Shown here one piece after another: positions 20,841-54,121 of a stretch of 64,000 nt of DNA; the stretch's first letter is position 1; each line of letters opens with the position of its first letter. The translations under genes and the position numbers were made by a program. A model generated the notes under the pieces. That model had not been told where the DNA came from, made no database searches, and saw nothing but the letters and a program-made list of their open reading frames with translations. Origin of the DNA: Rhodoglobus sp. (lineage in GTDB: Bacteria > Actinomycetota > Actinomycetes > Actinomycetales > Microbacteriaceae); NCBI GenBank assembly GCA_965227655.1, contig OZ245765.1:2393724-2457723 (forward strand), written 5' to 3'.

Positions 20841-21707
20841 CTACTCGGCTCCGGGCTTGGCCAGGAAGATGTTCTTCGCGGGCGGCGGGGACTGGATGGC
20901 CGTGGCATCCGTCACGACGGACGCCCCCGCGATGAACTCCCGCAGTTCGGAGTCGTGCACGATCTTCGACGGGTGCGGACCCGCGGCCAGCAGGCGCGCC
21001 ATCCACGAGTACGGCAGCTCCTCCGACGAGCCCACCATGACGAGGTTGCCGAACCGCTTGCCCTTCAAGATCTGGGTCTCGGCGAGCACGGCGACCGTGG
21101 GGAGAACGGACGAGATGGTCGCGGCCTGCGAGCGCGCAAACGCGAGGCCGGGCCCGTCGGCGACATTGGCGAGGATGATCCCGCGGGGCGACAGCAGCGC
21201 GACGGCGAGCCTGTAGAACTCGATGCTCGTGACGTGGGCGGGGGTTCGGGCGCCGCTGAACACGTCGACGACGACGAGGTCGACGGTGCCGTGCAGACCC
21301 TGTGGCAGCTTGCCGAGCACTTCGCGAGCGTCCCCGTGGCGGATGCGGATCTGGGCTTTCTTCGACCACGGCAGTTCTGTGCGCACGAGGTCGACGATGT
21401 CGGGCTCGATCTCGACAACCTGCTGCCGTGATCCGGGGCGGGTGGCCTCGATGTAGCGGGGGAGCGTGAGGGCGCCCGCGCCGAGGTGCACGGCGGTGAT
21501 GGGCTCGCCGGGCATCCCGATCTGGTCGATCACATGCCCCATGCGCTGGATGTACTCGAAGAACAGGTCGGCGGGATCGTCGAGGTTCACGTGCGACTGC
21601 GGCGTGCCGTTCACGGTGAGGGTGAAGGCGCCGGGAACCCAGCGGTCGGCAGTGATGGTGGCGAGGTGACCACTGCCGCTCAGTACCCGGCTCGGATTCT
21701 CGCTCAT
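20841..21707 (-). CDS. Spermidine synthase-like SAM-dependent methyltransferase fold protein
   Basis: QSHV, VHLGAGALTLPRY, VEIEPD, RHGDAR, DLVVVDVF. Confidence 0.85.
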   Translation of the reverse strand: MSENPSRVLSGSGHLATITADRWVPGAFTLTVNGTPQSHVNLDDPADLFFEYIQRMGHVIDQIGMPGEPITAVHLGAGALTLPRYIEATRPGSRQQVVEIEPDIVDLVRTELPWSKKAQIRIRHGDAREVLGKLPQGLHGTVDLVVVDVFSGARTPAHVTSIEFYRLAVALLSPRGIILANVADGPGLAFARSQAATISSVLPTVAVLAETQILKGKRFGNLVMVGSSEELPYSWMARLLAAGPHPSKIVHDSELREFIAGASVVTDATAIQSPPPAKNIFLAKPGAE

Positions 21708-21857
21708 GCTCCGAGGCTAGCCGACCGCGTGGCGGAGCCTCGGTGGCCGACGAGCGCGCAAGTTCGATACAACTTCTTCGTAGTAGTTGCTTAAATCTCA
21801 ACATTGTGGGGAGTATGGAGAGGATCCGAATTTCGACGAGGAATGAGGTAGGGGAAC

Positions 21858-22094
21858 ATGCAAACGATCGCTGAAGCATGGATTTTGGGCGAGGACTGGG
21901 GTATCGGCACCGATGTGTGGCCGTCGCCCATCGAGCCGTCGGGCTCGTACCTGAACCTTCAGGCGCCTCAGATGCCCGGCATGAGCAACTTCACGCTGGT
22001 GGACTGTGCTACGGCATCCGCCGTGTGCATGTCCACCTACTGCACGACCAGACTGGGCTCCTGTATAGGGACCAAGGGAGTCTGCGGCTGCTGA
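21858..22094 (+). CDS. Putative lanthipeptide precursor (LanA), 78 aa
   Basis: Purine-rich RBS (GAGGTAGGGGAAC-ATG); N-half has no Cys; residues 43-78 carry 6 Cys and 10 Ser/Thr; 67 bp upstream of LanM on the same strand. Confidence 0.85.
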   Translation: MQTIAEAWILGEDWGIGTDVWPSPIEPSGSYLNLQAPQMPGMSNFTLVDCATASAVCMSTYCTTRLGSCIGTKGVCGC

Positions 22095-22161
22095 GCCACT
22101 TGCCGCTCCCCGGCCAGACCCGCGAGTGTCATGTGAGCCTGCGTCGGGGAGGTGAGGGCGC

Positions 22162-25002
22162 GTGACTCCTCCGAGTGGGTCGCTCAGTGCCTCCGACCGC
22201 GAGCGTGCGCGGTTGGTGCCGCCCCCCATCTTCGTCGCCGCGGAGAAGCATTCGGAGTCGCTCGAAGCAATGGCGGCGCACACGATTACCGCGCGATGGA
22301 TTGAACGCGCCATGCGGGGGCTCGGGCCAGGTGCCGACCTTCCCTATGACCACGTCAGGGCTGCCCTGAGCGCGGAACTCACGGGCATGATGATGCGTTC
22401 GCTCGTCCTGGAGCTCGCTCTGGCGAACCGCGTCGGTGTCTTACCCGGCACTCTCCACGAGCAATATCGTTCGTTCTTCGGTGATCGATCGCTGGATGCC
22501 CTCATCGATTACTTGTCCCGGAAGTATCCGGCCCTTGCTGCTCTTGTCGACCATCGGGTCGCGTCGGCGGTCCGCTACTGCGATGTGGTTGAAGGCCTGT
22601 GGCGTGACGATCGCGCGGCCCTCTCGCCTGGATTGGTCGAGGATGGCGCCGAGATCATCGACCTCGAACCTCTCGGCGACACCCATGAGCACGGAATTCG
22701 CTCGGGCAAAGTGCACCTTTCTTCCGGTGAGGCCGTTGCCTTCAAGCCGTCCAGCGCTCGGCCACAAGGCTTTCTGACACGGTTCGGTGCTATCGCGCTG
22801 TCAGGCCGGAACATCCTGCAGGTCCCTAAGACCGTGGCCAGAGGCTCGCACCACTGGCAGAGATGGGAGAGCGGCGACGACCTCGTTGACGAGGATTCCG
22901 CGGTAGCCGCACAGACGTTCGGTCGCTGGCTCGCGATCGCCCATTTGACCGGAACAACGGATCTTCACTACGAGAACTTCATCGTGGGTCGTGCCGGTAT
23001 CCTCGCCGTCGATCTCGAAACGGTCGCCTCTGCGCAGCTGAGAATCGACGATGCACCTGTGGATAGTCGCGATGATCTAGCGAGAACCCTGATTCTGCCT
23101 TTCCGCATGGGCGGTGTCGACAACGTGCCGGGTCCGAACTGGGGCGCTTGGGGCGGTGATCATCGGTCGGCTGCGGGATTCCCCCGCTTCATGCTCGACA
23201 ACGACGAGACACCGCACATCAGGCTGCGGCAAGTGCTCGTCGATGCGGAGGAGCGCAGCCAGGTGGATCTCGCGGAGGTCCGGCGATCGATTGCCGCGTA
23301 TCCGCTCTTCCGCGAAGGCTTCATCGAGGCGATGCGCTCGGCGCGGGCGAACGCCACAGCCTTGTCTGCTCTGATCGGGTCGCAGGGTGGCATGAGATCG
23401 CGGGTGGTCCTGCGCGCGACGCAGACCTATTACGAGTCGATAGCGAAGGCCACACATCCGGTCGAATTGCTCAGTCGCCGTCGATTTCGAGCCGCGCTCG
23501 AAGGCAATCTGCCCGTCGCCCACCTCGAGGGTCTGATACCGGCCGAGCTCGCCTTACTCTCGCGGGGTGAGATCCCGCGTTTCCATGCCAAGTTCGACCA
23601 GTCGTCCGTTCGGGGTGTCGCCCTGGACTCGCCTGCGACCGTGATCCGGCGTCGGATGGACGCTTTGGTCAACGGCGGGGACCACATGCTCACGCTGTTC
23701 GAGCAGGACATCGAGGCACACGTGGTCGCGTTCAGCTTCTTGGGCGAGCTGCCCGCAGCCGCGGAAACGCGCGAGGCTGAGGAGAGTCTCCCGCCGGCGT
23801 CGGCAGCAATCGCGGCGAGCGTGGCCGCGATGCGTGTTGTGGGTAGCTCGTGGCCGACGAATCCGCGCACGTGGAGCAACGTGAACCCCACGATGTCGGG
23901 CTTATGGGCCCGAGAGAGATCCATGCCCAACTTCTACTCCGGAATGCCCGGAGTATACGTGTCGCTGAGCATGGCGAATCAGGCGGAAGCGGGAAGAGTC
24001 CCTCCCGAGTTCGTCACTGGCCTGGCGCACGAGATTCTGAACCTGTCTGTTGAGCCACCGAAGGACCTTGCGAATCCAGGAGCCTTCGCGGGATACGGCG
24101 GTGTCGCCTACGCCCTCGGGAGAGCCGTTCTCGCGGAGGATGTGACTCTCGAGGACGGGGTGGCGGGCTTGGCCAGTCTGAGCCGCACGATCGAGGAGAG
24201 CGTGCGGGAGGACGCCTGCTTTGACCTTATCGCTGGAGCGGCAGGCGCGGTCGCCGTATTCGCGGAACTCGTGCGCTGCGGTGTCTTGTCGGTCGAGAAC
24301 GGCGCCGAGGTCGTCGAACCCGCGATCAACCACCTGAAACTGAATGCGATGGAACATCCGGACGGACTGGTCTGGCCCAACGTTCTCTGGGACGGTGATT
24401 GGGTGAGCGGGCTCAGCCACGGGGGTGTAGGCATTGGCTGGGCGCTGCGGCGTTGGGCTCGCGTCTCGGGGGACTCCGAAGCCGAACGTATTGCCAGCGC
24501 TGCCATCGGCGTCCAGGACGGGCTCCGTGATGGGCAGTTCCACTGGCGGGAAAAGAAGCCGACCGCGCGCGTGCCCGACGAGAATCAGACATCCTGGTGC
24601 CACGGGTCGCAGGGGGTTCTGTTGTCGGTGCTCGACGATGAACCGCTCGATGCCCAGGGTTTGGCGCAGTTCGCCACGGACTCTCATGCGGTGCCGCTGC
24701 CGAAGTTGTCGGGCCTGTGCCATGGTGCGGCCGGTCAGCTCGTCTTGCTCCAGCGCATGCATGACCGTGCGAGGGCCCTCGGGCTGACGATTCCCGAACC
24801 ACTCTCCGCGTCGATTCAGGAGATCACCGAGAGTTTGACAGCGACAGTGTCGCGTAGGCGCGTCGTCGGAGTGGATGCTCCCGACTTGTGGAGCGCATCT
24901 CTGATGACCGGCCAAGCCGGGATCGTGCATGCGCTCTCAGTGGTTGGATCACTGGATTCCTCCCGTGAGCCGACGGTGCTCCTCCTCGAGTTGGCTCGAT
25001 GA
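22162..25002 (+). CDS. lanM: Class II lanthipeptide synthetase LanM (DUF4135 dehydratase + LanC-like cyclase)
   Basis: GDTH, FKP, TDLHYEN, VDLET, RVVLRATQTY, ELALLSRGEIPRF; cyclase GLSHG, WCHG, LCHG, SLMTGQAGI; GGAGGT RBS. Confidence 0.93.
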   Translation: MTPPSGSLSASDRERARLVPPPIFVAAEKHSESLEAMAAHTITARWIERAMRGLGPGADLPYDHVRAALSAELTGMMMRSLVLELALANRVGVLPGTLHEQYRSFFGDRSLDALIDYLSRKYPALAALVDHRVASAVRYCDVVEGLWRDDRAALSPGLVEDGAEIIDLEPLGDTHEHGIRSGKVHLSSGEAVAFKPSSARPQGFLTRFGAIALSGRNILQVPKTVARGSHHWQRWESGDDLVDEDSAVAAQTFGRWLAIAHLTGTTDLHYENFIVGRAGILAVDLETVASAQLRIDDAPVDSRDDLARTLILPFRMGGVDNVPGPNWGAWGGDHRSAAGFPRFMLDNDETPHIRLRQVLVDAEERSQVDLAEVRRSIAAYPLFREGFIEAMRSARANATALSALIGSQGGMRSRVVLRATQTYYESIAKATHPVELLSRRRFRAALEGNLPVAHLEGLIPAELALLSRGEIPRFHAKFDQSSVRGVALDSPATVIRRRMDALVNGGDHMLTLFEQDIEAHVVAFSFLGELPAAAETREAEESLPPASAAIAASVAAMRVVGSSWPTNPRTWSNVNPTMSGLWARERSMPNFYSGMPGVYVSLSMANQAEAGRVPPEFVTGLAHEILNLSVEPPKDLANPGAFAGYGGVAYALGRAVLAEDVTLEDGVAGLASLSRTIEESVREDACFDLIAGAAGAVAVFAELVRCGVLSVENGAEVVEPAINHLKLNAMEHPDGLVWPNVLWDGDWVSGLSHGGVGIGWALRRWARVSGDSEAERIASAAIGVQDGLRDGQFHWREKKPTARVPDENQTSWCHGSQGVLLSVLDDEPLDAQGLAQFATDSHAVPLPKLSGLCHGAAGQLVLLQRMHDRARALGLTIPEPLSASIQEITESLTATVSRRRVVGVDAPDLWSASLMTGQAGIVHALSVVGSLDSSREPTVLLLELAR

Positions 25003-25009
25003 GGTTCTC

Positions 25010-25768
25010 CTAGCCGCCCTGCGTGAAACTCTTGAGCACCTGCACGATTGTCGCGCCGCCGCTCAGGGTGTCGGGAACCTCGGTGCGCACCGGGCCCACG
25101 CCGTCGGCGAGCCATGTCGTCGCGTTGATGACGAGGCCCTCCACGCCGAGCTCCGGCAGCGAGATCGTGAGCGTCTGCGCGAGCTTGCGCGCCGAGTAGC
25201 TGCCCGCGGGGACGGTCACATCCTCGAGGCCGGCTCCTGCGATCGAGAAGTCGACGACCTCGTTGACCGTGGACGCGCTCGTCACGACCGTGGCCTCGAT
25301 GGTTCCCGTCTGGGGTGTGCCCGCCTCGAACTCGGCGTCGCTCGGCCACGTCATCGTGCCGCTCTTGACGGTGACGGTGCTGCCGCCCGCGGTCGGAATC
25401 GACTGGAAGGGCACGCTCAGCGACCCGTCCGCCGCGAACACGTAGTCGATGGTGTCGACGAGCTGCGGCTGCGATCCGTCGTCCCACACGAATGTGCGCT
25501 CGATGGTCACGCGCGCGCCGTCGCCCTCGGGTACGACCGAGGTCATGACCTCGGTGTCGGTCACCGTCGACCCGGTGCCGTAGTCGATCGAGTAGACCCA
25601 CGTGTTGCCCTCGCCCACGGGGTAGTAGATGCTCGCGATGCTGGCGCCGGCCGACCCCGTCGGGGCGCCCGTCGTCGCACCGGTCGGGTCGCTCGTAGCG
25701 GCGGGGCCGGCGGGGGTGCATCCGGCGAGCAGGGCGACGGTCACTACGGCAAGCGCTGCGAGTCTCAT
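25010..25768 (-). CDS. Hypothetical lipoprotein, beta-rich (DUF3108-like is a guess)
   Basis: Lipobox LLAGC; YYPVGEGNTWVY; EDVTVPAGSY; TWLADGVGPVRTE. Confidence 0.8.
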   Translation of the reverse strand: MRLAALAVVTVALLAGCTPAGPAATSDPTGATTGAPTGSAGASIASIYYPVGEGNTWVYSIDYGTGSTVTDTEVMTSVVPEGDGARVTIERTFVWDDGSQPQLVDTIDYVFAADGSLSVPFQSIPTAGGSTVTVKSGTMTWPSDAEFEAGTPQTGTIEATVVTSASTVNEVVDFSIAGAGLEDVTVPAGSYSARKLAQTLTISLPELGVEGLVINATTWLADGVGPVRTEVPDTLSGGATIVQVLKSFTQGG

Positions 25769-25794
25769 GCTCCCCAGATTAAGGCCGGATCAGC

Positions 25795-26442
25795 TCACGC
25801 GAGGGTAGGGAAAGCGCTGGACAGTACGCCGTCCACCGCGGCGATACTCGCGGCCAGGCGCTGCTCGCGCGGGCCCGTGATGAGCCGCCACGGCTCACCG
25901 CGGCGCTCGAGCTCCTCGACGAACCAGCGCTGCATGTCGTCGCGGAAGCTCTCGCCATCACGGATGCCGTCCTGTTCGAAGGGCACCCCGACCACGTCGG
26001 CGAGCAGATAGAGGGCGCGCGGCGGGGAGACCGGCACCGCCTCCAGGGCCGCGGTCGACGCGTCGCCGAGGTAGCGCCGTTCCCACAGCTGGGTGGCGAA
26101 CGCGTCGGTGTCGCAGAACAGCACGGGCGATCCGGATGCGGCGGCCTCATCCTCGAGGCGCTGCTGTTCGAGTGCGATCACCGCGAAGTCGTGTGGCCCC
26201 CACTCTGCGCTCGCGGCCTCGCCGTCTGCGGCGACGGATCCCTGTCGCTCGAGCAGTACCTCGGTGTACTCACGTCCGTACTCGGCAACCCACTTCGTGT
26301 CGGCCCAGATGCCGCCGATGGCACGGTAGCGGCCGACGAGTTCGCGAGCGAGCGTGGTCTTGCCCGTCGATTCGGAGCCCACGATCACGACCCTCGCGGT
26401 GAGGTCTGCGCGCTCGTCGGGGGTGAGTTTCAGCCAGTCCAT
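25795..26442 (-). CDS. NadR-type ribosylnicotinamide kinase-like P-loop protein (AAA_28)
   Basis: VIVGSESTGKTTL, EYGREY, LFCDTD, PFEQDGIR. Confidence 0.85.
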   Translation of the reverse strand: MDWLKLTPDERADLTARVVIVGSESTGKTTLARELVGRYRAIGGIWADTKWVAEYGREYTEVLLERQGSVAADGEAASAEWGPHDFAVIALEQQRLEDEAAASGSPVLFCDTDAFATQLWERRYLGDASTAALEAVPVSPPRALYLLADVVGVPFEQDGIRDGESFRDDMQRWFVEELERRGEPWRLITGPREQRLAASIAAVDGVLSSAFPTLA

Positions 26443-26667
26443 CGCCGCTTATAGCCCATTCTCAGAATCAGGTCAAGAAATAAGTTGCATAGGCGCGTCG
26501 TTACGTCCTATAGTTGATCCTTGCGCTCCCAGACAACTCATGCCGTCATATTGTGGACAGCTGGCGCGCCCCGAGTATAGCGGCGGGGCAAATCTCTCTT
26601 GGGTTCTGGTGAGCATTTCATTACCGACAGTTATGGTCCACTCCACGGGCCCACGGAGGTTATTTCC

Positions 26668-29600
26668 TTGGCTGCTGCGCGCACTGCGTCCACCAAAAAG
26701 TCCCCCAAGAACGGCCGCAACGCTTCGCGGCTTTCTTTCGCCAAGATCACCGACACCCTGACGGTTCCCGATCTGCTCGCACTGCAGACCGAGAGCTTCG
26801 ACTGGTTGGTCGGCAACGACATCTGGAAGCAGCGCGTCACGGAGGGTGTGGCCCAGGGCCGCACCGACCTGCCGTCCCGCAGCGGCCTCGATGAGATCTT
26901 CGAGGAGATCTCTCCCATCGAGGACCTCGGCGAGACCATGCAGCTCTCGTTCACGGGCCCGGAGCTCGAAGAGCCGAAGTACACGATCGACGAGTGCAAG
27001 GAGCGCGGCAAGACCTTCGCCGCCCCGCTGTACGTCAACGCCGAGTTCATGAACCACCTCACCGGTGAGATCAAGACCCAGACGGTCTTCATGGGCGACT
27101 TCCCGCTCATGACCGAGAAGGGCACGTTCATCATCAACGGCACCGAGCGTGTCGTCGTGTCCCAGCTCGTGCGTTCGCCCGGTGTCTACTTCGACCGCAC
27201 CCCCGAGAAGCTGTCTGACAAAGACATCTACTCCGCTCGCGTCATCCCGAGCCGTGGCGCATGGCTCGAGTTCGAGATCGACAAGCGCGACCAGGTCGGT
27301 GTGCGTATCGACCGCAAGCGCAAGCAGAGCGTCACCGTGTTCCTCAAGGCCCTCGGCCTCACGAGCGAGCAGATCCTCGAGGAGTTCAAGGGCTTCCCGT
27401 CGATCGAGCTCACCCTCGAGAAGGACTCCATCCTCACCAAGGAAGAGGCCCTCAAGGACATCTACCGCAAGCTGCGTCCGGGCGAGCAGGTTGCCGCCGA
27501 GGCCGCGCGCGCGCTGCTCGACAACTTCTACTTCAACTCGAAGCGCTACGACCTCGCGAAGGTCGGCCGTTACAAGATCAACCGCAAGCTGGGCCTCGAC
27601 ACCGACATCAAGCAGTCGGTTCTCACCATCGAGGACATCATTGCGACGATCAAGTACCTGGTCGCCCTGCACGACCCGTCGTCGAGCTACGTCTCCACGC
27701 AGGAGAACGGCTTCCAGACCATCAAGGGCCTCCGCGATGGCAAGAAGGTGGATGTGCGTCTCGACGTGGACGACATCGACCACTTCGGCAACCGTCGCAT
27801 CCGCGCCGTCGGCGAGCTCATCCAGAACCAGGTCCGCACCGGTCTCTCCCGCATGGAGCGCGTCGTTCGCGAGCGCATGACCACGCAGGACATCGAGGCG
27901 ATCACCCCGCAGACCCTGATCAACGTGCGCCCCGTCGTCGCCGCGATCAAGGAGTTCTTCGGCACGAGCCAGCTGTCGCAGTTCATGGACCAGAACAACC
28001 CGCTCGCGGGCCTGACCCACAAGCGTCGACTCTCGGCCCTCGGCCCCGGCGGTCTGTCGCGTGAGCGTGCCGGCGTCGAGGTTCGTGACGTCCACCCGTC
28101 GCACTACGGCCGCATGTGCCCCATCGAGACCCCGGAAGGCCCCAACATCGGCCTCATCGGTTCGCTCGCATCGTTCGCGCGCATCAACGCGTTCGGGTTC
28201 ATCGAGACCCCGTACCGCCGCGTCGTGAACGGCAAGGTCACCGACAAGATCGACTACCTCACCGCATCGGAAGAGGACGACTTCATCGTCGCCCAGGCGA
28301 ACGCCCCGCTCACCGCGGACGCGCACTTCGCCGAGCCCCGCGTGCTCGCCCGTAAGAAGGGCGGCGAGGTCGACCTGATCCCGACCGAGCAGATCGGCTA
28401 CATGGATGTCTCGCCGCGCCAGATGGTGTCGGTGGCAACGTCCCTCATCCCGTTCCTCGAGCACGACGACGCAAACCGCGCCCTCATGGGTGCGAACATG
28501 CAGCGCCAGGCAGTTCCGCTGCTGCGTTCGGAGAGCCCGCTCGTCGGTACCGGCATGGAGGGCTTCGCGGCCATCGACGCCGGCGACGTCATCACCGCCG
28601 ACAAGGCCGGTGTCGTCTCCGAGGTCTCGGCAGACTCGATCACCATCCAGCTCGACGAGGGCGGCACGCAGGACTACTACCTGCGCAAGTTCGACCGCTC
28701 GAACCAGGGCACGAGCTACAACAACCGGGTCATCGTCAGCGCGGGCGACCGCGTCGAGGCCAGCCAGGTGCTCGCCGACGGTCCCGCTACGGAGAACGGC
28801 GAGCTCGCGCTCGGCAAGAACCTCCTCGTGGCGTTCATGCCGTGGGAGGGTCACAACTTCGAAGACGCGATCATCCTGAGCCAGAACCTCGTGAAGGACG
28901 ACACCCTCTCCTCGATCCACATCGAGGAGTACGAGGTGGATGCCCGCGACACGAAGCTCGGCAAGGAGGAGATCACCCGTGACCTCCCCAACGTCAGCCC
29001 CGAGCTGCTCGCCGACCTCGACGAGCGCGGCATCATCCGCATCGGCGCGGAGGTTCGCCCCGGCGACATCCTCGTCGGCAAGGTCACGCCCAAGGGTGAG
29101 ACCGAGCTGAGCGCCGAGGAGCGCCTGCTGCGCGCCATCTTCAACGAGAAGAGCCGCGAGGTTCGCGACACCTCGCTCAAGGTTCCTCACGGTGAAGAGG
29201 GAACGATCATCGCGGTCAAGGAGTTCAATGCGGAGAACGACGACGAGCTCGGCTCGGGCGTCAACCAGCGCGTTGTGGTCTACATCGCCCAGAAGCGCAA
29301 GATCACCGCGGGCGACAAGCTCGCCGGTCGTCACGGCAACAAGGGCGTCATCTCGAAGATCCTTCCGGTGGAAGACATGCCGTTCATGGCAGACGGCACC
29401 CCCGTCGACGTCATCCTGAACCCGCTCGGTATCCCCGGCCGCATGAACTTCGGCCAGGTCCTCGAGACCCACCTCGGCTGGGTTGCGAAGCAGGGCTGGG
29501 AGGTCGACGGTTCCCCGAAGTGGGCAAACACGCTGCCCGACCACGCCCGTAGCGCCGCTCCCGGCACGAAGGTCGCGACCCCCGTGTTCGACGGTGCCCT

Positions 29601-30192
29601 CGAGAGCGAGATCGAGGGACTCCTGGAGTCCACGATCCCGACCCGCGATGGCGAGCGGATGATCGGCGCGAGCGGAAAGGCCCGTCTGTTCGACGGCCGT
29701 TCCGGCGAGCCGTTCCCCGAGCCCGTCTCGGTCGGATACATGTACATCCTGAAGCTCCACCACCTGGTGGACGACAAGATCCACGCCCGGTCGACCGGCC
29801 CCTACTCCATGATCACTCAGCAGCCGCTGGGTGGTAAGGCGCAGTTCGGTGGCCAGCGATTCGGTGAGATGGAGGTCTGGGCGCTCGAGGCATACGGTGC
29901 CGCGTACGCGCTCCAGGAGCTCCTCACGATCAAGTCGGACGACATCCTCGGACGCGTCAAGGTGTACGAGGCCATCGTCAAGGGCGAGAACATCCAGGAG
30001 CCTGGTATCCCCGAGAGCTTCAAGGTCCTGATCAAGGAGATGCAGTCGCTGTGCCTGAACGTGGAGGTGCTGTCTGCTGACGGCTCCACGGTCAACCTGC
30101 GCGACACGGATGACGAGGTCTTCCGTGCAGCGGAGGAGCTGGGCATCAACATCTCCACGCGCTTCGAGTCGTCGTCGATCGACGAGATCTAA
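26668..30192 (+). CDS. rpoB: DNA-directed RNA polymerase beta subunit
   Basis: [57 protein letters not shown]; TTG start after GGAGGT. Confidence 0.99.
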
Positions 30193-30238
30193 GCCGCCTC
30201 TCACTCATTTCTGAAGCTTTCTAAGAGAGAAGAACACA

Positions 30239-34120
<3,882 letters not shown>

Positions 34121-34366: not shown

Positions 34367-35266
34367 GTGTTCGCCTACCTACCCGAAAGGGGCGAAGCGT
34401 CCGGCTATGCCGTCGTAACCCCCCGTTTTGCCTGCCTACTGGGCTCCGATGCCACGGCCGAGATCGCCCGATCGATCTTCTGGCTGCTTGATGGCCCGGA
34501 TGCCCAGCTCCAGGATGCCCTCGGCACCCTGTCCCACATCGACAAGGTCGACCGCTTCGCGATCGTCGAACTGCTCGACGCCTCTGCCACCGAGCTGCGG
34601 GTTTCCGCGCTGGGAGAGGTGAGCGTCGGCATCGACGGCGTTACCACTGCCCGCGCATCCGGCTCAGTGTTGACGACCTCGGCCACGGGCGTGCGCGCCT
34701 CGTGGTTCTCACTCGAGGGCGGTCGCCCTGAGGGCGACCTGCTGCCCCTGCACCGCGGCATCGCCCGTGCGACCGCCCTCGTCACCGGCGGGCCGTCGGC
34801 GCCGAGCGTCGACGCTGCCGAGTTCGCGGTCGACGCCGAGCCCGAGCCCGAGCCTCAGGCTGAGCAGCCCGAGACTCAGCCCGACGTTGCACCCGAACCC
34901 GAGCAGCAGGCGGCGCCCGAGGCCCCGACCGGCCGCTGGGTGCTGCACCTGCCCGACGGATCCGAGGTCGAGGCGAGTAGAACCATCATCATCGGCCGCG
35001 ACGAGTGGGCGGCGCCCGACGACGGCGACCTCATCCGTCACGTCTCGGTGCCCTCGCCGAAGAAGCAGATCTCGGGCGATCACCTCGAGCTCGCCCTCGT
35101 CGGCGACGAGCTGGTGGCGCGTGATCTCGACTCCACGAACGGCACCATCGTCATCACCCAGGAGCAGCCACCGCGACTTCTCCACAACGGTGAGACGACC
35201 CCGCTGCAGGCAGGCGATATCCTCGATCTCGGGGAGAGCCTGCAGATCGTGGTGAGCAACCGCTAG
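34367..35266 (+). CDS. FHA domain protein
   Basis: C-terminal IIIGR...ISGDH...DLDSTNGT; acidic Pro linker; TAATGT 6 nt before GTG. Confidence 0.88.
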   Translation: MFAYLPERGEASGYAVVTPRFACLLGSDATAEIARSIFWLLDGPDAQLQDALGTLSHIDKVDRFAIVELLDASATELRVSALGEVSVGIDGVTTARASGSVLTTSATGVRASWFSLEGGRPEGDLLPLHRGIARATALVTGGPSAPSVDAAEFAVDAEPEPEPQAEQPETQPDVAPEPEQQAAPEAPTGRWVLHLPDGSEVEASRTIIIGRDEWAAPDDGDLIRHVSVPSPKKQISGDHLELALVGDELVARDLDSTNGTIVITQEQPPRLLHNGETTPLQAGDILDLGESLQIVVSNR

Positions 35267-35302
35267 CTAGGGCCCCCGCTTCACGACGGGAGGGGCACCG
35301 CC

Positions 35303-36430
35303 ATGGCACGCGCCACGCTGACCCCACCCGTCCTGCCGGGCTTCACGTACGTGCGCCCGCTCGGCACGGGCGGCTTCGCCGACGTGTTCCTGTACGAGCA
35401 GGACATGCCGCGGCGCGTGGTGGCCGTGAAGGTGCTCCTCAACGACGCCATCAACCCCGAGGTGCTGAGGGCGTTCAACGCCGAGGCCGACATCATGGCG
35501 CGGCTGAGCGCGCATCCGTCGATCGTCACCATCTACCAGGCGAGCATCTCGGCCGACGGCAGGCCGTTCCTCGCCATGGAGTACTGCCCAGACACGATGA
35601 GCGCCCGGTACCGCAAGGCGCCGCTGGGGGTCGCCGAGGTGCTCGACGCGGGGGTGCGGATCGCCGCGGCCCTCGAGACCGTGCACCGCTCGGGGGCCTT
35701 ACACCGCGACATCAAGCCGTCGAACATCCTCATCACCTCCCTCGGCATCCCCGTGCTCGCCGACTTCGGTATCGCCGCGGGCTTCGGCATCGAGAACGCG
35801 GGCCCCGACCTGCTCGCGCTCTCGGTGCCATGGAGTTCGCCCGAGGTGCTCTCGGAGAAGGTGAACGGTTCGGTGCCGAGCGAGGTGTGGAGCCTTGGCG
35901 CGACGCTCTACACGTTGCTCGCGGGCCGCAGTCCGTTCGAGCTCGCCGACCGGGTGAAGAACACGCGCGACCAGCTCTCGGCACGCGTCGCGAAAGCGCA
36001 CTACACCCCGCTGGCCCGCACGGATGTGAGCCAGAAGCTCGAGGGCATCCTCGCCCGCAGCATGGCCAAGGAGCCGTCGCAGCGGTACGCGTCGATGCAC
36101 GCAATGGCGGAAGACCTGCGGTGGGCGCAGTACGAGCTGGGTCTGCCGCCGACAGCGCTCGAGGTGGCGAGTCCCGAGTGGGCGGCGGCCTCCACCGTGA
36201 GCTTCGCGGATTCGGCGGCGCGCGGGCCGATCATCACGACAGTCAACAAGGACTCGCGCAGGGCAGCGCGCGCGCAGACTGTGCTCTCGCGCCTGGACGG
36301 CGACCGCGAGGGCGTCACGGCCGGATCGAAGCGGCAGCGGGGCTGGAAGGTCCCCGTGCTCGTCGGTGTCGGTGCCGTCATCGTGCTGGGCATCGTCGCC
36401 GTCACCCTCCGCCTGCTCGGAGTGCTCTGA
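35303..36430 (+). CDS. Hanks-type Ser/Thr protein kinase with C-terminal TM
   Basis: GTGGFADV, VAVK, HRDIKPSN, ADFG, PWSSPE, SEVWSLG. Confidence 0.95.
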   Translation: MARATLTPPVLPGFTYVRPLGTGGFADVFLYEQDMPRRVVAVKVLLNDAINPEVLRAFNAEADIMARLSAHPSIVTIYQASISADGRPFLAMEYCPDTMSARYRKAPLGVAEVLDAGVRIAAALETVHRSGALHRDIKPSNILITSLGIPVLADFGIAAGFGIENAGPDLLALSVPWSSPEVLSEKVNGSVPSEVWSLGATLYTLLAGRSPFELADRVKNTRDQLSARVAKAHYTPLARTDVSQKLEGILARSMAKEPSQRYASMHAMAEDLRWAQYELGLPPTALEVASPEWAAASTVSFADSAARGPIITTVNKDSRRAARAQTVLSRLDGDREGVTAGSKRQRGWKVPVLVGVGAVIVLGIVAVTLRLLGVL

Positions 36431-36431
36431 C

Positions 36432-39400
36432 GTGACTCGACCCCTCCTGAAGGTGGGCGCGGTCGTGGCTGCCGTCGCCACCGTCGTGACCCTCGCCGTT
36501 GTGGCTCAGGGCTACGACGCCCAGGAGGTGCCACGCCTCGAGACCTCGGTGTGGGTCACGCGCGACGACGGCCAGTACGCGCGCGTCAACACCGAGCTCG
36601 CCGAGCTCGACACCGTGCGGTCCGTGCAGGACCCGACGGGTGTCGTGCAGTCGGGCGACAACAGCATCGTCTTCAGCCAGGGTTACAGCCAGGTGTGGCC
36701 TGTCGACGCCTCCCGGCCCGTGAACCTCTCGGAGGGCGCCAACGCCCCCGACGGCTCCGGCGCCCCTGTCTCGAGTAGCAGCACTCCGCCGGGCACGCGC
36801 ACGGTCGTTTCGGCGGGGCCCTGGGTGCTCTACCTGACTGACACCGGCTCGGTGTTCCTCGGCGAGCTCGGCGACGGCTCCGTGGCACCGGATGCGGTCA
36901 TCCCCGTCACTCCGTTCGCCGAGGCGACTGCCCCCGAGGGGCGTCCGCAGCCCACCTACAGCGCCTCGGCCGTGGCTGTCTCCGCCTCGGGCCAGGTGGC
37001 GCTCTACTCGACCGCGGAGTCGTCGGTGCGCAGGTTCGACGCCAACACCCTGCAGTTCATCGGTGGCGCCACTGCCGTACCGTCGCCCCCGAAAGCCGAT
37101 TCGGCGGTCGAGCTCGCTGTCGTCGGCACGCACTGGATCCTCAGCGCGGCCACCGAGGGGCTCGCGTGGGTGCAGGGGCTCGCCGCTCCCCTCGAGACCG
37201 GTGCGGGCGGCGAGGCGAGACTGCAGTCCAGCTCCGCGAGCGGTGCGGTGGCGTACCTGGCCGACGCGACGGGGCTTGTCAGCGTCGACCTCGGCAGCGG
37301 AGCTGTCGGGTCCGTGGTCTCTGCGGCGGGCATCCCGGCCACCCCGCTCGCGCTCGACGATACCGTCTACGCGGCGTGGCTGTCGGCGGATGCCGGCACC
37401 CTGTGGTCCTCGGCAACGGGCGAGTCGACACCGCTCGCGACGCAGGCCGACGTGCTGGGCGAGGTGCAGGCGATCGCGCCGGTGTTCCGCAGCAACGGAC
37501 AGCGTGCCGTGCTCAACGAGACCTCGTCGGGCATGGTGTGGACGGTGCCTGACGGCACGCTCATCCCGGTCGACCAGTGGACGGTCGGCGACGACACGCA
37601 GCAGGACACGGGCACGGTTGTCGTGGACGACGTCGCCGAGGAGAAGCCGCCCGTGGCGGTCGCGGACTCGTTCGGTGTGCGCAGCGGAGCGCAGGTGGCG
37701 CTGCCCCTGCTGCTCAACGACCACGACCCCAACAAGAAAGACGTGCTCTCCGTCTCGGCCGATTCGGTGGGCGGTGGGCTCTCCGACCCCGCGTTCGGCT
37801 CGCTCGGCCTCGCGTCGAACAACCAGCAGGCCGTCGTGACCGTGGGCGCCGATGCCGGGTCTGCGACCTTCTCGTACGCGGTCACCGATGGTGCCGCCAC
37901 CTCCGAGCCGGCCGCCGTCACGCTCACCGTCGTGCCGGACGGGCAGAACTCAGCTCCCGTGTGGTGTGGGGTGGAGAACTGCCAGCAGCAGTGGCCCTCG
38001 CCGCAGGTGTCGCCGGGAGGCACCGTGACGGTCCCCGTGCTCACCGGCTGGGTGGATCCCGAGGGCGACCCTTTCGTGCTCTCGGATGCACGCCCGGAGA
38101 ACAGCGCAGACCCCGTGTCGGTAGTGGCGACCGCCGACGGCCGCGTGGCGATCCGGCACAGCGACCCCAACGCGGCGAGCAGCACCATCGCGATCGTGGT
38201 GACCGTGACCGACTCGTTCGGCGCGAGCGCGGAGAAGGTACTCACCCTGCTCGTGAGCTCGAGCCCCGCACTCGACGTCGCCCCGATCGTGCTCGTCGCG
38301 GGCGTGGGCGAGAAGGCGAGCATCCGGATCGGCGAGCACGTAACGGGCGGATCGGGCGCGTACCGCGTGCTCGACGCCGTGGCCTCCACCGCCTCGTCCG
38401 GGCTCCTCGTGGTCCCCAATGCCGCCGCGGGAACCGTCGAGCTCACGGCGTCGAACGCGGGCGAGTACCTCGTGACGTACACCGTGCAGGATGCCTCGAC
38501 CCTCGCGCAGCAGTCGGCGATCATCCGGCTCACGGTGCCCGAGGCGGGCGTGCCGCTCGCGATAGCCCCCGTCACGGCGTTCGTGCGCTCGAACGAGGAC
38601 ACGACCATCGACCTCATCGGCGCCGTGCAGAACAGCACGGGCCGCGTGCTCATCGTGTCCCAGGCGACCACGGTCGACGCGGGACTGAGCGTGAGCGTCG
38701 TGGGCCAGTCGCAGGTGCGCGTGAGCGGATCGACGGCCACGGGCGAGCCCGGCCGCGTGGGCACGGCGAGCGTGACGATCACGGATGGCGCGGGCTCCAC
38801 GGTCGTCGGCCAGCTCACGGTGTTCCAGGTGCCGGCGAGCACCGACGCGTTCCCCATCGCGGTACCCGACAGTGTCACCGTGCGCGCGGGACTGCAGGTG
38901 GACATCCCGGTTCTGGCGAACGACCTGAGTCCGCGCGGGGAACGTCTCGTGCTGCATCCGACCATCGAAGGCTCGGGCACGGATGGCGAGCTCGCCTTCG
39001 TCGCGGGCAGCGCGGTGCGCTACCTCGCCCCGACCGCGCCGGGCGTCTACACCCTGCGCTACTCGCTCTACCTCGAGTCGCGGCCCGACCGCCTCGACAC
39101 GGCGCTCATCACCGTGACCGTGCTGCCCGCGGGGGCCAACCGCGCGCCGCAGCCCTCGATCCTGACCGCGCGCGCCCTCAGCGGGCAGACTGTGCGGATT
39201 CCCGTGAGTGGATACGGCGTCGACCCGGACGGTGACACCGTCGTGCTCGCCTCCGTCGACCAACCCGGTTCCGGCAAGGGCACCGCGGCCATCTCGGCGG
39301 AGGGCGATGCCATCGTCTACACGGCTCCGGCGGCGGGCGTGCCCGGCAGCCAGGTGAGCTTCGCGTACTCCGTGCGCGACTCGTCAGGGGCCGTAGGCTC

Positions 39401-42338: not shown

Positions 42339-42360
42339 CGAACATCCGAGAGGACACCGA

Positions 42361-43326
42361 ATGACGATTCCCCCCGAGCAGGCCACCTGGTTCGCCGAGA
42401 CGTTCGCGCTCCTGGCCGACAACGTCGAGCAGTCGATCCTCGGCAAGCGCAAGGTCGTCGAGCTCGTGCTCGCGACGGCCATCAGCGAGGGCCACGTGCT
42501 GCTGGAGGATGTGCCCGGCACGGGCAAGACCGCGCTCGCGCGCACGATAGCCCAGACGGTCACGGGCGTGAGCTCGCGCATCCAGTTCACCCCCGACCTG
42601 CTGCCGGGCGACGTGACGGGCATCACGGTCTACGACCAGAAGGTCGGCGAGTTCCAGTTCCACGCGGGCCCCATCTTCGCGAACGTCGTGCTCGCGGATG
42701 AGATCAACCGCGCGAGCCCGAAGACGCAGTCGGCGCTCCTCGAGGTCATGGAGGAGGGGCAGGTCACCGTCGACGGCATCACGCGCCCGGTCGGAGTGCC
42801 GTTCCTCGTCATCGCGACGCAGAACCCCGTCGAGCAGGCGGGCACGTACCGCCTCCCGGAGGCGCAACTCGACAGGTTCATGATCAAGACCTCTATCGGG
42901 TACCCGGATGACGCGGCGACCATGCGAATCTTGCAGGGGGTCATGAGCCCCAAGCCCGAGGTGGCAGGAATCGTCTCGCCGGAGACGCTCGTCTCGATGA
43001 CCGACATCGCGCGCGGTGCCTACGTGAACCCGCTGCTGTTCGACTACATCATGCGCATCGTGGACGCCACCCGCCGGGCCTCCGAGGTCAAGCTCGGGGT
43101 GAGCGTTCGCGGCGCCCTCGCGCTCTCGAAGCTCGTCATGACGTGGGCCGTCGCGCACGGCCGCACCTTCGTGACCCCTGACGACGTGCGCGAGCTGGCG
43201 GTGCCGGCGCTCGCCCATCGCCTCATCCTGCTGCCGGAGGCCGAGTTCGACGGCGTCACCGCCGTGGGCGTCATCGGGCAGATCCTGCTCGACGTGCCCG
43301 CCCCCGCGGAGAACGGGGCCGCGTGA
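42361..43326 (+). CDS. MoxR family AAA+ ATPase
   Basis: EDVPGTGKT, RIQFTPDLLPGD, ADEINRASPKTQSALLE, ATQNP, QLDRF. Confidence 0.96.
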   Translation: MTIPPEQATWFAETFALLADNVEQSILGKRKVVELVLATAISEGHVLLEDVPGTGKTALARTIAQTVTGVSSRIQFTPDLLPGDVTGITVYDQKVGEFQFHAGPIFANVVLADEINRASPKTQSALLEVMEEGQVTVDGITRPVGVPFLVIATQNPVEQAGTYRLPEAQLDRFMIKTSIGYPDDAATMRILQGVMSPKPEVAGIVSPETLVSMTDIARGAYVNPLLFDYIMRIVDATRRASEVKLGVSVRGALALSKLVMTWAVAHGRTFVTPDDVRELAVPALAHRLILLPEAEFDGVTAVGVIGQILLDVPAPAENGAA

Positions 43327-48198: not shown

Positions 48199-48989
48199 CC
48201 GAGGTCGTGCTCGCGGTGGCCGCCAGAACGGATCCGGGACTCAAGCGGCCCGTCAACGAGGATTCGCTGCTCGCCGAGTCGCCGGTGTTCGTCGTCGCCG
48301 ACGGCATGGGCGGGTACGAGGCTGGCGACCTCGCGAGTGCTGCGGTCGTCGACGCGTTCCGCGGCATGGTGGGGGATGCGTGGGCCGACGTGGCGGGCAT
48401 CCGGGCGGCCCTCGTCGCGGCGTCGGAGGGCGTGGCGGCAGTCGCTGACGGCACACTGCGCGGAGCGGGCAGCACCGTCACGGGGGCTGCCCTCGTCGAT
48501 CACGGCGGAATCGCGCACTGGCTCGTCTTCAACGTGGGCGACTCGCGCGTCTATCGCCACGTGGGCAACGAGCTCGAGCAGCTCACCATCGACCACTCGC
48601 TCGGGCAGGAGCTCGTCGACCGCGGCGAGCTCAGACACGACCAGATGGCCGACTTCGCCAACCGCAACATCATCACGCGAGCCATCGGCGCCGCCGACAG
48701 CACTGCCGACAGCTGGCTCGTGCCCGTGGTCACGGGCGACCGGCTGCTGATCTGCTCGGACGGGCTGTACTCGGAGGTGCCCGACGAGGGAATCCGCGCG
48801 ACCCTGACGATGAGCGGCAAGCCGGAGTCCGCGGCGAGCACCCTCGTGCAGCGCGCACGGGATGCGGGCGGCCGCGACAACATCTCCGTGATCGTCATCG
48901 ACGTCATCGCGGGCGGGTCGCCCGCGGCGGCCGGCGAGTCGACGGGCGTGCGCGACACCACGACGGTCCCCGTGCCGAGGCAGTCGTGA
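48195..48989 (+). CDS. PP2C/PPM family Ser/Thr phosphatase
   Basis: RPVNEDS, VADGMGG, NVGDSR, CSDGL, GGRDNIS. Confidence 0.95.
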   Translation: MTEVVLAVAARTDPGLKRPVNEDSLLAESPVFVVADGMGGYEAGDLASAAVVDAFRGMVGDAWADVAGIRAALVAASEGVAAVADGTLRGAGSTVTGAALVDHGGIAHWLVFNVGDSRVYRHVGNELEQLTIDHSLGQELVDRGELRHDQMADFANRNIITRAIGAADSTADSWLVPVVTGDRLLICSDGLYSEVPDEGIRATLTMSGKPESAASTLVQRARDAGGRDNISVIVIDVIAGGSPAAAGESTGVRDTTTVPVPRQS

Positions 48990-54118: not shown

Positions 54119-54121
54119 CGG

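What the first reader, a model, noticed from the sequence alone, without database searches (positions are those of the whole stretch)
22162..25002. Intact LanM in a minimal two-gene cluster with no exporter, protease, immunity or regulator
Seen: the dehydratase motifs used by LctM/CylM (Lys of FKP; D, H, N of DLHYEN; D, E of DLE; R-x5-T of RVVLRAT) and the cyclase Zn ligands (Cys of WCHG; Cys and His of LCHG; GLSHG His) are all present. The flanks are a spermidine-synthase-like gene and a convergent lipoprotein only 7 bp from the lanM stop. Known: class II clusters normally encode LanT (peptidase-ABC) or LanP. Inference: maturation and export use trans-acting host enzymes (the Pro-rich leader end suggests prolyl oligopeptidase or aminopeptidase trimming, as in class III systems), or the product acts inside the cell or as a signal rather than as a bacteriocin.
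Basis: partly seen in the sequence, partly recalled or inferred. Interest (0 to 1): 0.75.

Follow-up and report, generated by a model that had tools for sequence, protein, structure and literature searches.

The report
Minimal mobile lanA–lanM lanthipeptide cassette
A soil-type actinobacterium (family Microbacteriaceae) picked up a 3.3-kb, two-gene module that encodes a cysteine-rich peptide and the enzyme that ties it into thioether rings. Both genes are intact and kept by selection, but this is an ordinary kind of system from an undescribed peptide family, not a new mechanism.

Summary
ORF 22162-25002 is an intact class II lanthipeptide synthetase (LanM) with every catalytic and zinc-binding residue in place. 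It is preceded by a 78-aa precursor gene (lanA, 21858-22094). Nothing in the 64-kb window encodes an ABC or C39 exporter, a leader peptidase, LanFEG-type immunity or a nearby regulator.

The pair is a 3.3-kb horizontally acquired islet (21727-25013, GC3 0.74-0.78 against about 0.9 in its neighbours). It sits in a variable slot upstream of rpoB. None of 80 syntenic Microbacteriaceae loci carries it, and a co-occurring strain has a 624-bp alternative allele there.

A strain about 92% identical has the same two-gene arrangement. All 11 of its lanA differences are synonymous, and 32 of 39 changed lanM codons are synonymous. The cassette is therefore under selection, not decaying.

LanM belongs to a small divergent clade (nearest relatives 58%, 35% and about 30% identical). 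Its partners form an undescribed LanA family: a leader with ExW[IL], and a core ending C-x-G-T-x-x-V-C-G-C.

Relatives often sit beside transposases or integrases and carry variable accessories (ABC/FtsX, secreted S41 peptidase, or none).

How this product is exported and trimmed remains untested. The proposed prolyl-oligopeptidase route has no support. Moderate interest.

The parts
21727..25013 (.). The lanA-lanM islet: the segment present here but absent from syntenic relatives.
   Evidence: Homology to relatives L003-L006 stops at 21706-21726 and resumes at 25014-25021. A co-occurring strain's contig joins 21726 to 25035 with 624 other letters in between. GC3 is 0.74-0.78, against 0.86-0.92 in the neighbours.
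21727..21857 (+). Non-coding leader region upstream of lanA, relatively AT-rich. It presumably holds the promoter. A ribosome-binding site (GAGGTAGGGG) lies just before the ATG.
   Evidence: Sequence read. The simple scan found no consensus sigma-70 site, so the promoter is inferred. The region is not conserved with L001 apart from the ribosome-binding site and the start codon.
21858..22094 (+). lanA, a 78-aa precursor peptide: MQTIAEAWILGEDW...PQMPG | MSNFTLVDCATASAVCMSTYCTTRLGSCIGTKGVCGC.
   Evidence: It is 65% identical to the peptide upstream of the closest LanM. It belongs to an 11-member LanA family. All 11 nucleotide differences in a strain about 92% identical are synonymous, P about 1e-7.
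21858..21980 (+). Predicted leader (aa 1-41). It carries the family motifs AEAWIL, PSPIE and PQMPG. The cleavage site after G41 is inferred, not shown.
   Evidence: Family alignment; conservation pattern.
21981..22091 (+). Predicted core (aa 42-78): 6 Cys and 10 Ser/Thr, ending in the family signature C-I-G-T-K-G-V-C-G-C.
22095..22161 (+). lanA-lanM spacer, 67 bp. GGAGG at 22148-22152 lies 9 nt before the GTG start. No significant hairpin.
   Evidence: The fold z-score is 0.35.
22162..25002 (+). lanM, a 946-aa class II lanthipeptide synthetase.
   Evidence: In the relative from sample X7, 32 of 39 changed codons are synonymous and there are no indels.
22525..23589 (+). Dehydratase (kinase/lyase) domain, aa 122-476 (DUF4135). 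Contains K195, D267, H269, N272, D284, E286, R414 and T420.
23929..24972 (+). LanC-like zinc cyclase domain, aa 590-937. Contains H753, C813, C853 and H854.
20841..21707 (-). Left boundary gene, NOT part of the cluster: a spermidine-synthase-like methyltransferase-fold protein.
   Evidence: Conserved at 69-86% identity in 80 Microbacteriaceae loci that all lack lanAM.
25010..25768 (-). Right boundary gene, NOT part of the cluster: a DUF3108-like lipoprotein, convergent, 7 bp from the lanM stop.
   Evidence: Present next to the SpdSyn-like gene in relatives that lack lanAM.

Best explanation
This is a functional, horizontally acquired, stripped-down class II lanthipeptide cassette.

How it works. 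lanA encodes a 78-aa precursor. LanM binds the conserved N-terminal leader (AEAWIL...PSPIE). It phosphorylates Ser/Thr in the core with ATP and eliminates phosphate to give dehydro-residues. Its zinc cyclase domain then adds the six Cys thiols to form thioether rings. This chemistry is inferred from the conserved catalytic residues; it is not shown here.

Where it comes from. The pair belongs to a small, previously undescribed actinobacterial LanM/LanA family that travels with mobile elements. The lanA-lanM pair is the constant core of that family, and the accessory genes around it come and go. In this lineage only the core was inserted, into a variable slot between a lipoprotein gene and a SpdSyn-like gene upstream of rpoB. 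It has been kept under purifying selection since.

Fate of the product. Because several family members carry ABC/FtsX modules or secreted S41 peptidases, the product is most probably an extracellular peptide of the bacteriocin type. Here its export, its leader trimming (probably after the conserved P-x-M-x-G motif) and any self-protection would be supplied by genes elsewhere in the genome.
For: Identity: domains and all catalytic and zinc residues are present.

Precursor: the peptide upstream of the 58%-identical LanM is 65% identical, with leader and core conserved and the linker variable. Eleven LanMs of the clade each sit next to a peptide that ends ...C.G[TS]xx[VIMFL]CGC.

Acquisition: GC3 is 0.74/0.78 against about 0.9 in the neighbours. 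0 of 80 syntenic loci carry it; the slot is empty in L003 and holds a small lipoprotein gene in L004-L006. Both alleles co-occur in one study.

Selection: a relative about 92% identical keeps the same junctions and has no indels. lanA shows 11 of 11 synonymous differences (P = 1.2e-7) and lanM 32 of 39 (P = 2.6e-13).

Mobility and variable accessories in relatives: resolvase, transposase or integrase beside lanAM in L085, L086, L088-90 and L093/94. ABC/FtsX in L088-90, L091, L093/94 and L095. S41 peptidase in L085 and L086. Nothing within 10 kb either side in Curtobacterium herbarum.

Literature: about one third of lanthipeptide clusters lack a protease, and remote proteases are known (PMC10885120).
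Against: There is no direct evidence of transcription or of a product. The RNA runs under the same organism label contain no reads of this bacterium, not even on rpoB/rpoC. No RNA run holds the locus.

The rest of the genome could not be searched, so the trans-acting exporter, peptidase and immunity genes are assumed.

No recognisable promoter or terminator was found. lanM ends 7 bp from a convergent gene.

The leader has no double-glycine motif and no signal-peptide features, so the export route is unknown.

The ring pattern and biological activity are unknown. The S41 and ABC associations come from a handful of short metagenomic contigs.
Confidence: 0.55

Rival explanations
1. The modified peptide is not exported. 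It acts inside or on the producing cell, for example as an anti-phage effector analogous to the class I 'lanthivirins', or as a signal or morphogen. On this reading no exporter, leader peptidase or immunity gene is needed, and the two genes are the whole system.
For: No exporter, peptidase or immunity gene lies in 64 kb here, nor within 10 kb either side in Curtobacterium herbarum. The whole LanA, leader included, is under purifying selection (11 of 11 synonymous differences). The family is associated with mobile elements. There is precedent: class I clusters in Actinobacteria confer anti-phage activity, lack a protease, and it is unclear whether processing is needed (bioRxiv 10.64898/2026.08.26.747419; PMC12715929).
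Against: At least four family members have ABC/FtsX genes and two have secreted S41 peptidases beside lanAM, which points to an extracellular product. PADLOC gives no hit for LanM or LanA. No defence genes flank the islet. Leader conservation is equally expected for recognition by LanM.
Confidence: 0.17
2. The cassette is an incomplete fragment of a larger cluster that was captured without its transporter and immunity genes. It is silent or non-productive: a genomic passenger that has not yet decayed.
For: The closest relative (L001) has a further gene that overlaps the lanM stop and encodes a membrane protein absent from the window. Other relatives have ABC/FtsX modules. No promoter or terminator is recognisable. 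No expression data exist.
Against: Both ORFs are intact in two lineages about 8% diverged at the nucleotide level. There are no indels, and synonymous changes are in strong excess in both genes. All catalytic residues are retained. The same bare arrangement occurs independently in Curtobacterium herbarum.
Confidence: 0.13
3. LanM here acts mainly on a substrate other than the adjacent peptide, such as distant precursor genes (as with ProcM and the prochlorosins) or a protein. On this reading the small ORF is incidental.
For: LanM-type enzymes with remote substrates are known in cyanobacteria (PMC7268733).
Against: The adjacent peptide co-varies with the LanM clade in 11 loci and is under purifying selection. 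The zinc site is CHG/CHG, not the ProcM-type CCG. A motif scan of the window finds no second LanA-like ORF.
Confidence: 0.03

Closest known systems
Class II lanthipeptide synthetases (LanM: CylM, LicM2, LctM)
   Same: The two-domain architecture is the same: a DUF4135 kinase/lyase domain plus a LanC-like zinc cyclase. Every catalytic residue defined in CylM is conserved. A Cys/Ser/Thr-rich precursor gene lies immediately upstream.
   Different: Similarity is weak: phmmer E-values are 1e-15 to LicM2 and 1e-5 to CylM. The score is below NCBI's TIGR03897 cutoff. Among 1.84 billion representative proteins, only one relative is above 35% identity. There is no LanT, no LanP and no double-glycine leader.
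Actagardine / michiganin A group (class II lantibiotics of Actinoplanes and the Microbacteriaceae member Clavibacter)
   Same: These are actinobacterial, and one is from the same bacterial family. They are globular class II peptides without a GG leader; their leader ends are EDRTIYAA and RRVVSPYM (PMC3930743). Their C-terminal C-G-T-x-x-C-A-C resembles the C-x-G-T-x-x-x-C-G-C tail here. This resemblance rests on sequences recalled from memory.
   Different: A profile of the new LanA family scores only 3-4 bits on the recalled GarA, ClvA and MrsA precursors, and 5-9 of 200 shuffles do as well. The lipid II motif T-x-[ST]-x-E-C is absent from the window's core. No mersacidin-type Pfam model hits.
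Actinopeptins (DUF6229 class II lanthipeptides of Actinomycetota, PMC13509491)
   Same: They are actinobacterial LanA/LanM pairs with a Trp-containing leader motif ([VLIA]xxW[LR]) and a P[AV]G-type motif. They have CHG zinc sites and are below 30% identical to other class II families.
   Different: Neither LanA hits DUF6229 or any other Pfam model, even at E <= 10. The leader motif here is ExW[IL] and P-x-M-x-G. The core tail ...CGC is specific to this family.
Prochlorosin (ProcM/ProcA) and other lanthipeptide systems whose protease or transporter is encoded remotely (class III/IV AplP-type)
   Same: The biosynthetic core has no dedicated protease or exporter in the cluster. Trans-acting maturation is established for these systems (PMC10885120).
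   Different: ProcM has a CCG zinc site, Nif11/NHLP leaders with GG motifs, and many substrates. Here there is one substrate, CHG sites and no GG motif. Class III/IV enzymes have a different dehydratase architecture.
Lanthivirins (class I anti-phage lanthipeptide clusters of Actinobacteria)
   Same: They are actinobacterial, have no protease in the cluster, and the product has not been detected outside cells (bioRxiv 10.64898/2026.08.26.747419).
   Different: They use LanB/LanC enzymes plus methyltransferase and CoiH. Here the enzyme is a LanM. There is no PADLOC hit and no defence-island context.

Membership tests
Class II lanthipeptide synthetase (LanM) | N-terminal DUF4135 dehydratase domain (PF13575) above the gathering score | tested here: met
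   132.6 bits against a cutoff of 29, aa 122-476.
Class II lanthipeptide synthetase (LanM) | C-terminal LanC-like cyclase domain (PF05147) with zinc ligands Cys/Cys/His and the catalytic His | tested here: met
   89.8 bits against a cutoff of 23.2. C813, C853, H854 and H753 are present.
Class II lanthipeptide synthetase (LanM) | Kinase and phosphate-elimination residues of CylM (K274, D347, H349, N352, D364, E366, R506, T512) | tested here: met
   K195, D267, H269, N272, D284, E286, R414 and T420 align to them. They are invariant in 9 clade members.
Class II lanthipeptide synthetase (LanM) | Score above the curated cutoff of NCBIfam TIGR03897 (lanti_2_LanM) | tested here: not met
   232.4 bits against a cutoff of 304. 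The match is full-length but divergent.
Class II lanthipeptide synthetase (LanM) | Adjacent precursor with leader plus Cys- and Ser/Thr-rich core | tested here: met
   lanA at 21858-22094, with 6 Cys and 10 Ser/Thr in the last 37 residues. Conserved in 11 related loci.
Class II lanthipeptide synthetase (LanM) | Demonstrated dehydration and cyclisation of the precursor | not testable with these tools
   Needs co-expression and mass spectrometry.
Canonical class II lantibiotic gene cluster (lacticin 481 / mersacidin type) | LanT (ABC exporter with C39 peptidase domain) or LanP in the cluster | tested here: not met
   None in 64 kb by Pfam or by tblastn.
Canonical class II lantibiotic gene cluster (lacticin 481 / mersacidin type) | Double-glycine (GG/GA/GS) leader cleavage motif | tested here: not met
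   The leader has no GG/GA/GS motif before the core. The conserved element is P-x-M-[PST]-G.
Canonical class II lantibiotic gene cluster (lacticin 481 / mersacidin type) | Immunity genes (LanI or LanFEG) and LanRK regulators nearby | tested here: not met
   None nearby. The only response-regulator/kinase pair is at 50.5-52.3 kb.
Actinopeptins | Precursor matches Pfam DUF6229 | tested here: not met
   No Pfam hit for either LanA, even at E <= 10.
Actagardine/michiganin/mersacidin-type precursors | Significant sequence relationship of the precursor, and the lipid II-binding T-x-[ST]-x-E-C ring | tested here: inconclusive
   The family profile scores 3.4-4.3 bits on precursor sequences recalled from memory, and 5-9 of 200 shuffles score as well. 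The motif is absent from the window's core. The reference sequences could not be fetched.
ProcM-type (prochlorosin) synthetases | CCG zinc-site motif and Nif11/NHLP leader | tested here: not met
   The motifs are WCHG and LCHG. The leader has no Pfam or NCBIfam hit.
Known anti-phage defence systems (PADLOC 2.0) | Match of LanM or LanA to a defence-system model | tested here: not met
   No hits. The library predates the lanthivirins.

The most novel reading that the evidence does not exclude
The bare lanA-lanM pair is a complete, self-sufficient mobile module. Its ring-closed peptide works without dedicated export or leader removal, that is, inside or on the producer cell, for instance as a class II counterpart of the anti-phage lanthivirins or as a signal. 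This would explain why the entire precursor, leader included, is frozen by selection, and why the pair spreads alone.
Probability: 0.12. Interest if true: 0.75.

Novelty: new member of a known kind. Interest (0 to 1): 0.35.

Why it matters
This defines an uncharacterised LanM/LanA family, with 11 precursors sharing a leader motif and a C-x-G-T-x-x-V-C-G-C tail. The family occurs in Actinomycetota, often on mobile elements, and is largely unannotated; the lanA of a deposited Curtobacterium herbarum genome assembly (GCA_016907335.1) is not among its called genes.

It also gives a clean natural example of a two-gene lanthipeptide core inserted into a housekeeping neighbourhood and maintained by purifying selection without local exporter, peptidase or immunity genes. 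That makes it a convenient system for asking what the minimal requirements for lanthipeptide production are, and which host functions substitute for LanT, LanP and LanFEG.

It does not change what is known about the chemistry or class of the system.

Tried and rejected
(1) Scans of GTDB genomes and JGI metagenomes with LanM-derived patterns, and of JGI metagenomes with a LanA-core DNA pattern, found no relatives. Relatives were eventually found through the full HMMER search and contig look-ups.

(2) A word-index search with LanA found only itself.

(3) Transcription could not be tested. Three RNA-seq runs under the same organism label have zero reads on 15 kb that includes rpoB/rpoC, so the bacterium is absent from them and they are uninformative. 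The RNA-specific run search found no RNA run holding the locus.

(4) The gene downstream of lanM in L001 has no Pfam hit and no homologue, and no similarity to the FtsX protein of L088. Its FtsX-like appearance (a transmembrane segment followed by a large external domain) remains a guess.

(5) The plasmid database holds only distant LanMs, at 25% identity or less.

(6) I looked for mobile-element scars at the islet borders. The only candidate is a 12-nt imperfect repeat (21734 / 25074), probably chance.

(7) There is no hairpin or attenuator in the lanA-lanM spacer (z = 0.35). No consensus promoter was found on the + strand upstream of lanA, and no terminator.

(8) A relationship to actagardine, michiganin or mersacidin precursors was not significant. 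The michiganin paper is not held.

(9) The SpdSyn-like neighbour was rejected as a tailoring enzyme, because it is conserved in all 80 relatives that lack lanAM.
Full report
WHAT IS THERE

The window is a high-GC (about 69%) actinobacterial chromosome segment. It carries rpoB (26599-30192) and rpoC (30239-34120) and a flagellar cluster at 52.8-64 kb. Using the left flanking gene as a probe, 80 syntenic loci were recovered. All are from Microbacteriaceae (MAGs and isolates labelled Salinibacterium, Rhodoglobus, Leifsonia, Glaciihabitans, Mycetocola and others), and rpoB is up to 96-98% identical at the protein level.

ORF 22162-25002 (+) encodes a 946-aa protein with a DUF4135 dehydratase domain (2.6e-38) and a LanC-like cyclase domain (1.7e-25). 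Sixty-seven bp upstream lies a 78-aa ORF (21858-22094): MQTIAEAWILGEDWGIGTDVWPSPIEPSGSYLNLQAPQMPGMSNFTLVDCATASAVCMSTYCTTRLGSCIGTKGVCGC.

CHECK OF THE MOTIFS

phmmer against PDB sequences aligns the protein to LicM2 (6st5, 1e-15) and CylM (5dzt, 1e-5). Counting along the CylM alignment gives these equivalences:
- K195 = K274
- D173/H175 = D252/H254
- D267/H269/N272 = D347/H349/N352
- D284/E286 = D364/E366
- R414/T420 = R506/T512

In the cyclase domain GLSHG (H753), WCHG (C813) and LCHG (C853/H854) are present. All of these are invariant in the closest homologue. All but the last pair are invariant across nine clade members; one member is only 838 aa, which may account for that pair, though I did not check it. 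One qualifier: the protein scores 232 bits on NCBI's LanM model TIGR03897, below the 304-bit cutoff, so it is a divergent LanM.

CHECK OF 'NOTHING ELSE'

I ranked ORFs by codon-position GC and scanned essentially all coding-like ORFs of the 64 kb against Pfam.
- There is no ABC transporter, no C39, S8, S9 or M1 peptidase, and no LanFEG-like genes.
- The only transporters are an MMPL protein and a Na/Ca exchanger more than 18 kb away.
- The only two-component regulator pair is at 50.5-52.3 kb.
- tblastn with the accessory proteins found beside related lanM genes (ABC, FtsX, S41, SBP) finds nothing in the window.
- lanM's TGA is 7 bp from the stop of a convergent lipoprotein gene, whose product starts MRLAALAVVTVALLAGC.

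THE PAIR IS AN ACQUIRED ISLET

GC3 is 0.74 for lanM and 0.78 for lanA, against 0.86-0.92 for the neighbours. None of the 80 syntenic Microbacteriaceae loci contains lanA or lanM. In the four closest (L003-L006) the gene order is rpoB, AAA_28 kinase, lipoprotein, [slot], SpdSyn-like, GSDH, SprT. Nucleotide homology with the window stops at 21706-21726 and resumes at 25014-25021. The slot is 16 bp in L003 and about 620 bp, holding a small lipoprotein gene, in L004-L006.

In a metagenome from the same study as the window's source, a co-occurring strain's contig joins 21726 to 25035 with 624 other letters in between. Both alleles therefore coexist in nature. No transposon scars were found at the borders.

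IT IS MAINTAINED BY SELECTION

In a sample under a different organism label, contigs about 92% identical cover 21769-25856 except for a 46-bp gap at 22657-22702. They show the same junctions and no indel in either gene; the only indel is 1 bp in the 7-bp spacer.
- lanA: all 11 differences are third-position and synonymous. A random change is synonymous with probability 0.235, so P = 1.2e-7.
- lanM: of the 40 listed differences (39 changed codons), 32 codons are synonymous and 7 are not (P = 2.6e-13).

The islet therefore predates the split of these lineages, and both genes have been under purifying selection in the bare two-gene arrangement. This argues strongly against a decaying remnant.

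THE FAMILY

A full HMMER search of 1.84 billion representative proteins finds 2,758 LanM-like proteins, but only one at 58% identity (P0002) and one at 35%. Four more lie at 29-30% with E-values between 1e-72 and 1e-83, and the rest are weaker than 1e-53.

Contig look-ups show that each of these LanMs is preceded by a small ORF. Eleven distinct peptides share three features:
- a leader motif [IL]-x-E-[AS]-W-[IL] followed by S-P-[IV];
- a P-x-M-[PST]-G element before the core;
- a core ending C(T)T-x-C...[IV]-G-[TS]-x-x-[VIMFL]-C-G-C.

The peptide of L083 has the family leader but a different core (13.4 bits, 0 of 200 shuffles as good). One member is an uncalled 72-aa ORF (L084:9789-10007) in the Curtobacterium herbarum genome assembly GCA_016907335.1.

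The precursors hit no Pfam or NCBIfam model, even at E <= 10. They are therefore not actinopeptins (DUF6229, PMC13509491) and not mersacidin-type by those models. A profile of the family does not significantly match actagardine, michiganin or mersacidin precursors written from memory (3-4 bits; 5-9 of 200 shuffles as good). The C-terminal resemblance to actagardine's C-G-T-V-I-C-A-C is only a lead.

CONTEXT OF RELATIVES

Mobile-element genes lie directly beside lanAM in several loci:
- L085: resolvase, rve transposase, AAA_22
- L086: resolvase
- L088-90: phage-type integrase; these loci also carry two lanA-lanM pairs
- L093/94: Transposase_mut

Accessory genes differ from locus to locus:
- L088-90: an 872-aa FtsX-type protein plus a 608-aa ABC exporter
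- L091, L093/94, L095: ABC ATPases and/or FtsX
- L085 and L086: homologous secreted S41 peptidases, 32% identical to each other
- L083: a peptide-binding SBP_bac_5 protein
- L001: an unidentified membrane protein whose gene overlaps the lanM stop
- C. herbarum: nothing within 10 kb either side

The constant unit is therefore lanA-lanM. The window holds the stripped form.

HOW IT MOST LIKELY WORKS

Shown:
- an intact LanM with all catalytic residues;
- a co-evolving precursor that is conserved by selection;
- horizontal acquisition;
- no local accessory genes.

Inferred from established LanM biochemistry (CylM structure, PMC4550811): ATP-dependent phosphorylation and elimination at Ser/Thr of the core, then zinc-catalysed Cys addition, giving up to six thioether rings in a core of about 37 residues (6 Cys, 10 Ser/Thr).

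Inferred from family context:
- the leader is removed after the conserved P-x-M-x-G element;
- the product is extracellular, because relatives carry ABC/FtsX and secreted peptidases;
- in this genome the needed functions are encoded elsewhere.

Remote proteases are well documented for lanthipeptides, and about one third of more than 20,000 clusters lack a protease (PMC10885120).

RIVALS

(a) An intracellular or cell-associated role with no export. The precedent is the class I lanthivirins, which lack a cluster protease and whose product has not been detected outside cells (bioRxiv 10.64898/2026.08.26.747419; PMC12715929). This reading is possible but not favoured, because relatives carry exporters, PADLOC gives no hit and there is no defence context.

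(b) A silent fragment. The selection data argue against it.

(c) LanM acting on remote substrates. The co-variation of the adjacent LanA argues against it, as do the CHG rather than CCG zinc sites and the absence of a second LanA-like ORF in the window.

WHAT COULD NOT BE DONE

- Transcription: no RNA data contain this organism.
- The whole-genome search for lanT/lanP, because only the window is available.
- Identification of the extra gene in L001.
- Retrieval of authentic actagardine and michiganin sequences.

VERDICT

The system is a new member of a known kind: a divergent LanM/LanA family in a minimal, mobile, selected two-gene form. Interest is moderate. It is a good genome-mining lead and a neat minimal system, but the missing accessory genes are not in themselves surprising.

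Noticed in passing
window 21727-25013 versus L003:9987-10000 and L004-L006 (about 620-bp segments): The slot between the DUF3108-like lipoprotein gene and the SpdSyn-like gene is a variable spot in this Microbacteriaceae lineage. It is empty (16 bp) in L003. In L004-L006 it holds a gene for a secreted lipoprotein of about 155 aa, rich in Cys and Asp (M..LTGCS...DCFDE...). In the window it holds lanAM. Both alleles co-occur in one study's samples.
   Followed up: yes
L084:9789-10007 (Curtobacterium herbarum GCA_016907335.1): A 72-aa LanA-family ORF (MDAATISEAWLSG...CVGTQRVCGC) lies immediately upstream of, and slightly overlapping, the annotated LanM. It is not among the called genes, so the precursor of this deposited genome assembly appears to be unannotated.
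   Followed up: partly
L085:9329-10309 (-) and L086:3365-4372 (+): Two independent lanA-lanM loci of the family have a homologous Peptidase_S41 gene beside them. The two peptidases are 32% identical and both have signal or lipoprotein N-termini. S41 peptidases are not, to my knowledge, established lanthipeptide leader peptidases, so this is a candidate worth testing.
   Followed up: partly
L001:4060-4998 and L001:242-571: In the closest relative, a gene overlapping the lanM stop by 4 bp encodes a protein with one N-terminal transmembrane segment and a large external domain. It has no Pfam hit and no homologue in 5.8 billion proteins. Upstream is a 109-aa protein with weak ribbon-helix-helix-like hits (TraY, PSK_trans_fac).
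   Followed up: partly
L088-L090 (2191-9593 in L088): Next to a phage-type integrase there are two consecutive lanA-lanM pairs (77-aa and 93-aa precursors; LanMs of 860-891 and 917 aa). A convergent 872-aa FtsX-type protein and a 608-aa ABC exporter follow. This may be a two-peptide system of the same family. It was seen on 17 contigs from different samples.
   Followed up: no
window 36366-48989: A gene for a 1,990-aa surface protein with Big_9 and cadherin-like repeats. It is followed by genes for a MoxR AAA+ ATPase, a DUF58 protein, a transglutaminase-like protein, an FHA/DUF5684 protein and a PP2C phosphatase. An FHA protein and a Ser/Thr kinase lie just upstream (34367-36430).
   Followed up: no
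window 52869-64000: A flagellar gene cluster (FliW, FlgL-like, FlgK, FlgN, a sigma factor, flagellin, FliD, FliS, rod proteins, FliF, FliG). The host is therefore a motile member of the Microbacteriaceae.
   Followed up: no
window 20841-21707 (-): The SpdSyn-like neighbour gives a weak hit to the PADLOC model mad2 (1.2e-8). This is probably shared methyltransferase fold only, since the gene is conserved housekeeping synteny in 80 relatives.
   Followed up: partly
sequencing runs X1-X17: The runs that hold this sequence share a species label with very large Hi-C and WGS libraries (up to 210,000 million letters) and with RNA-seq runs that contain no reads of this bacterium. The window probably comes from a bacterium co-sequenced in a eukaryote-host or environmental project rather than from an isolate.
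   Followed up: partly
window 26001-34000: The rpoB-rpoC region and the lanAM islet are the lowest-GC stretches of the window (0.63-0.66, against about 0.70-0.72 elsewhere). For rpoBC this goes with normal high GC3 (0.88-0.90), so it reflects protein composition. For lanAM, GC3 itself is low.
   Followed up: yes
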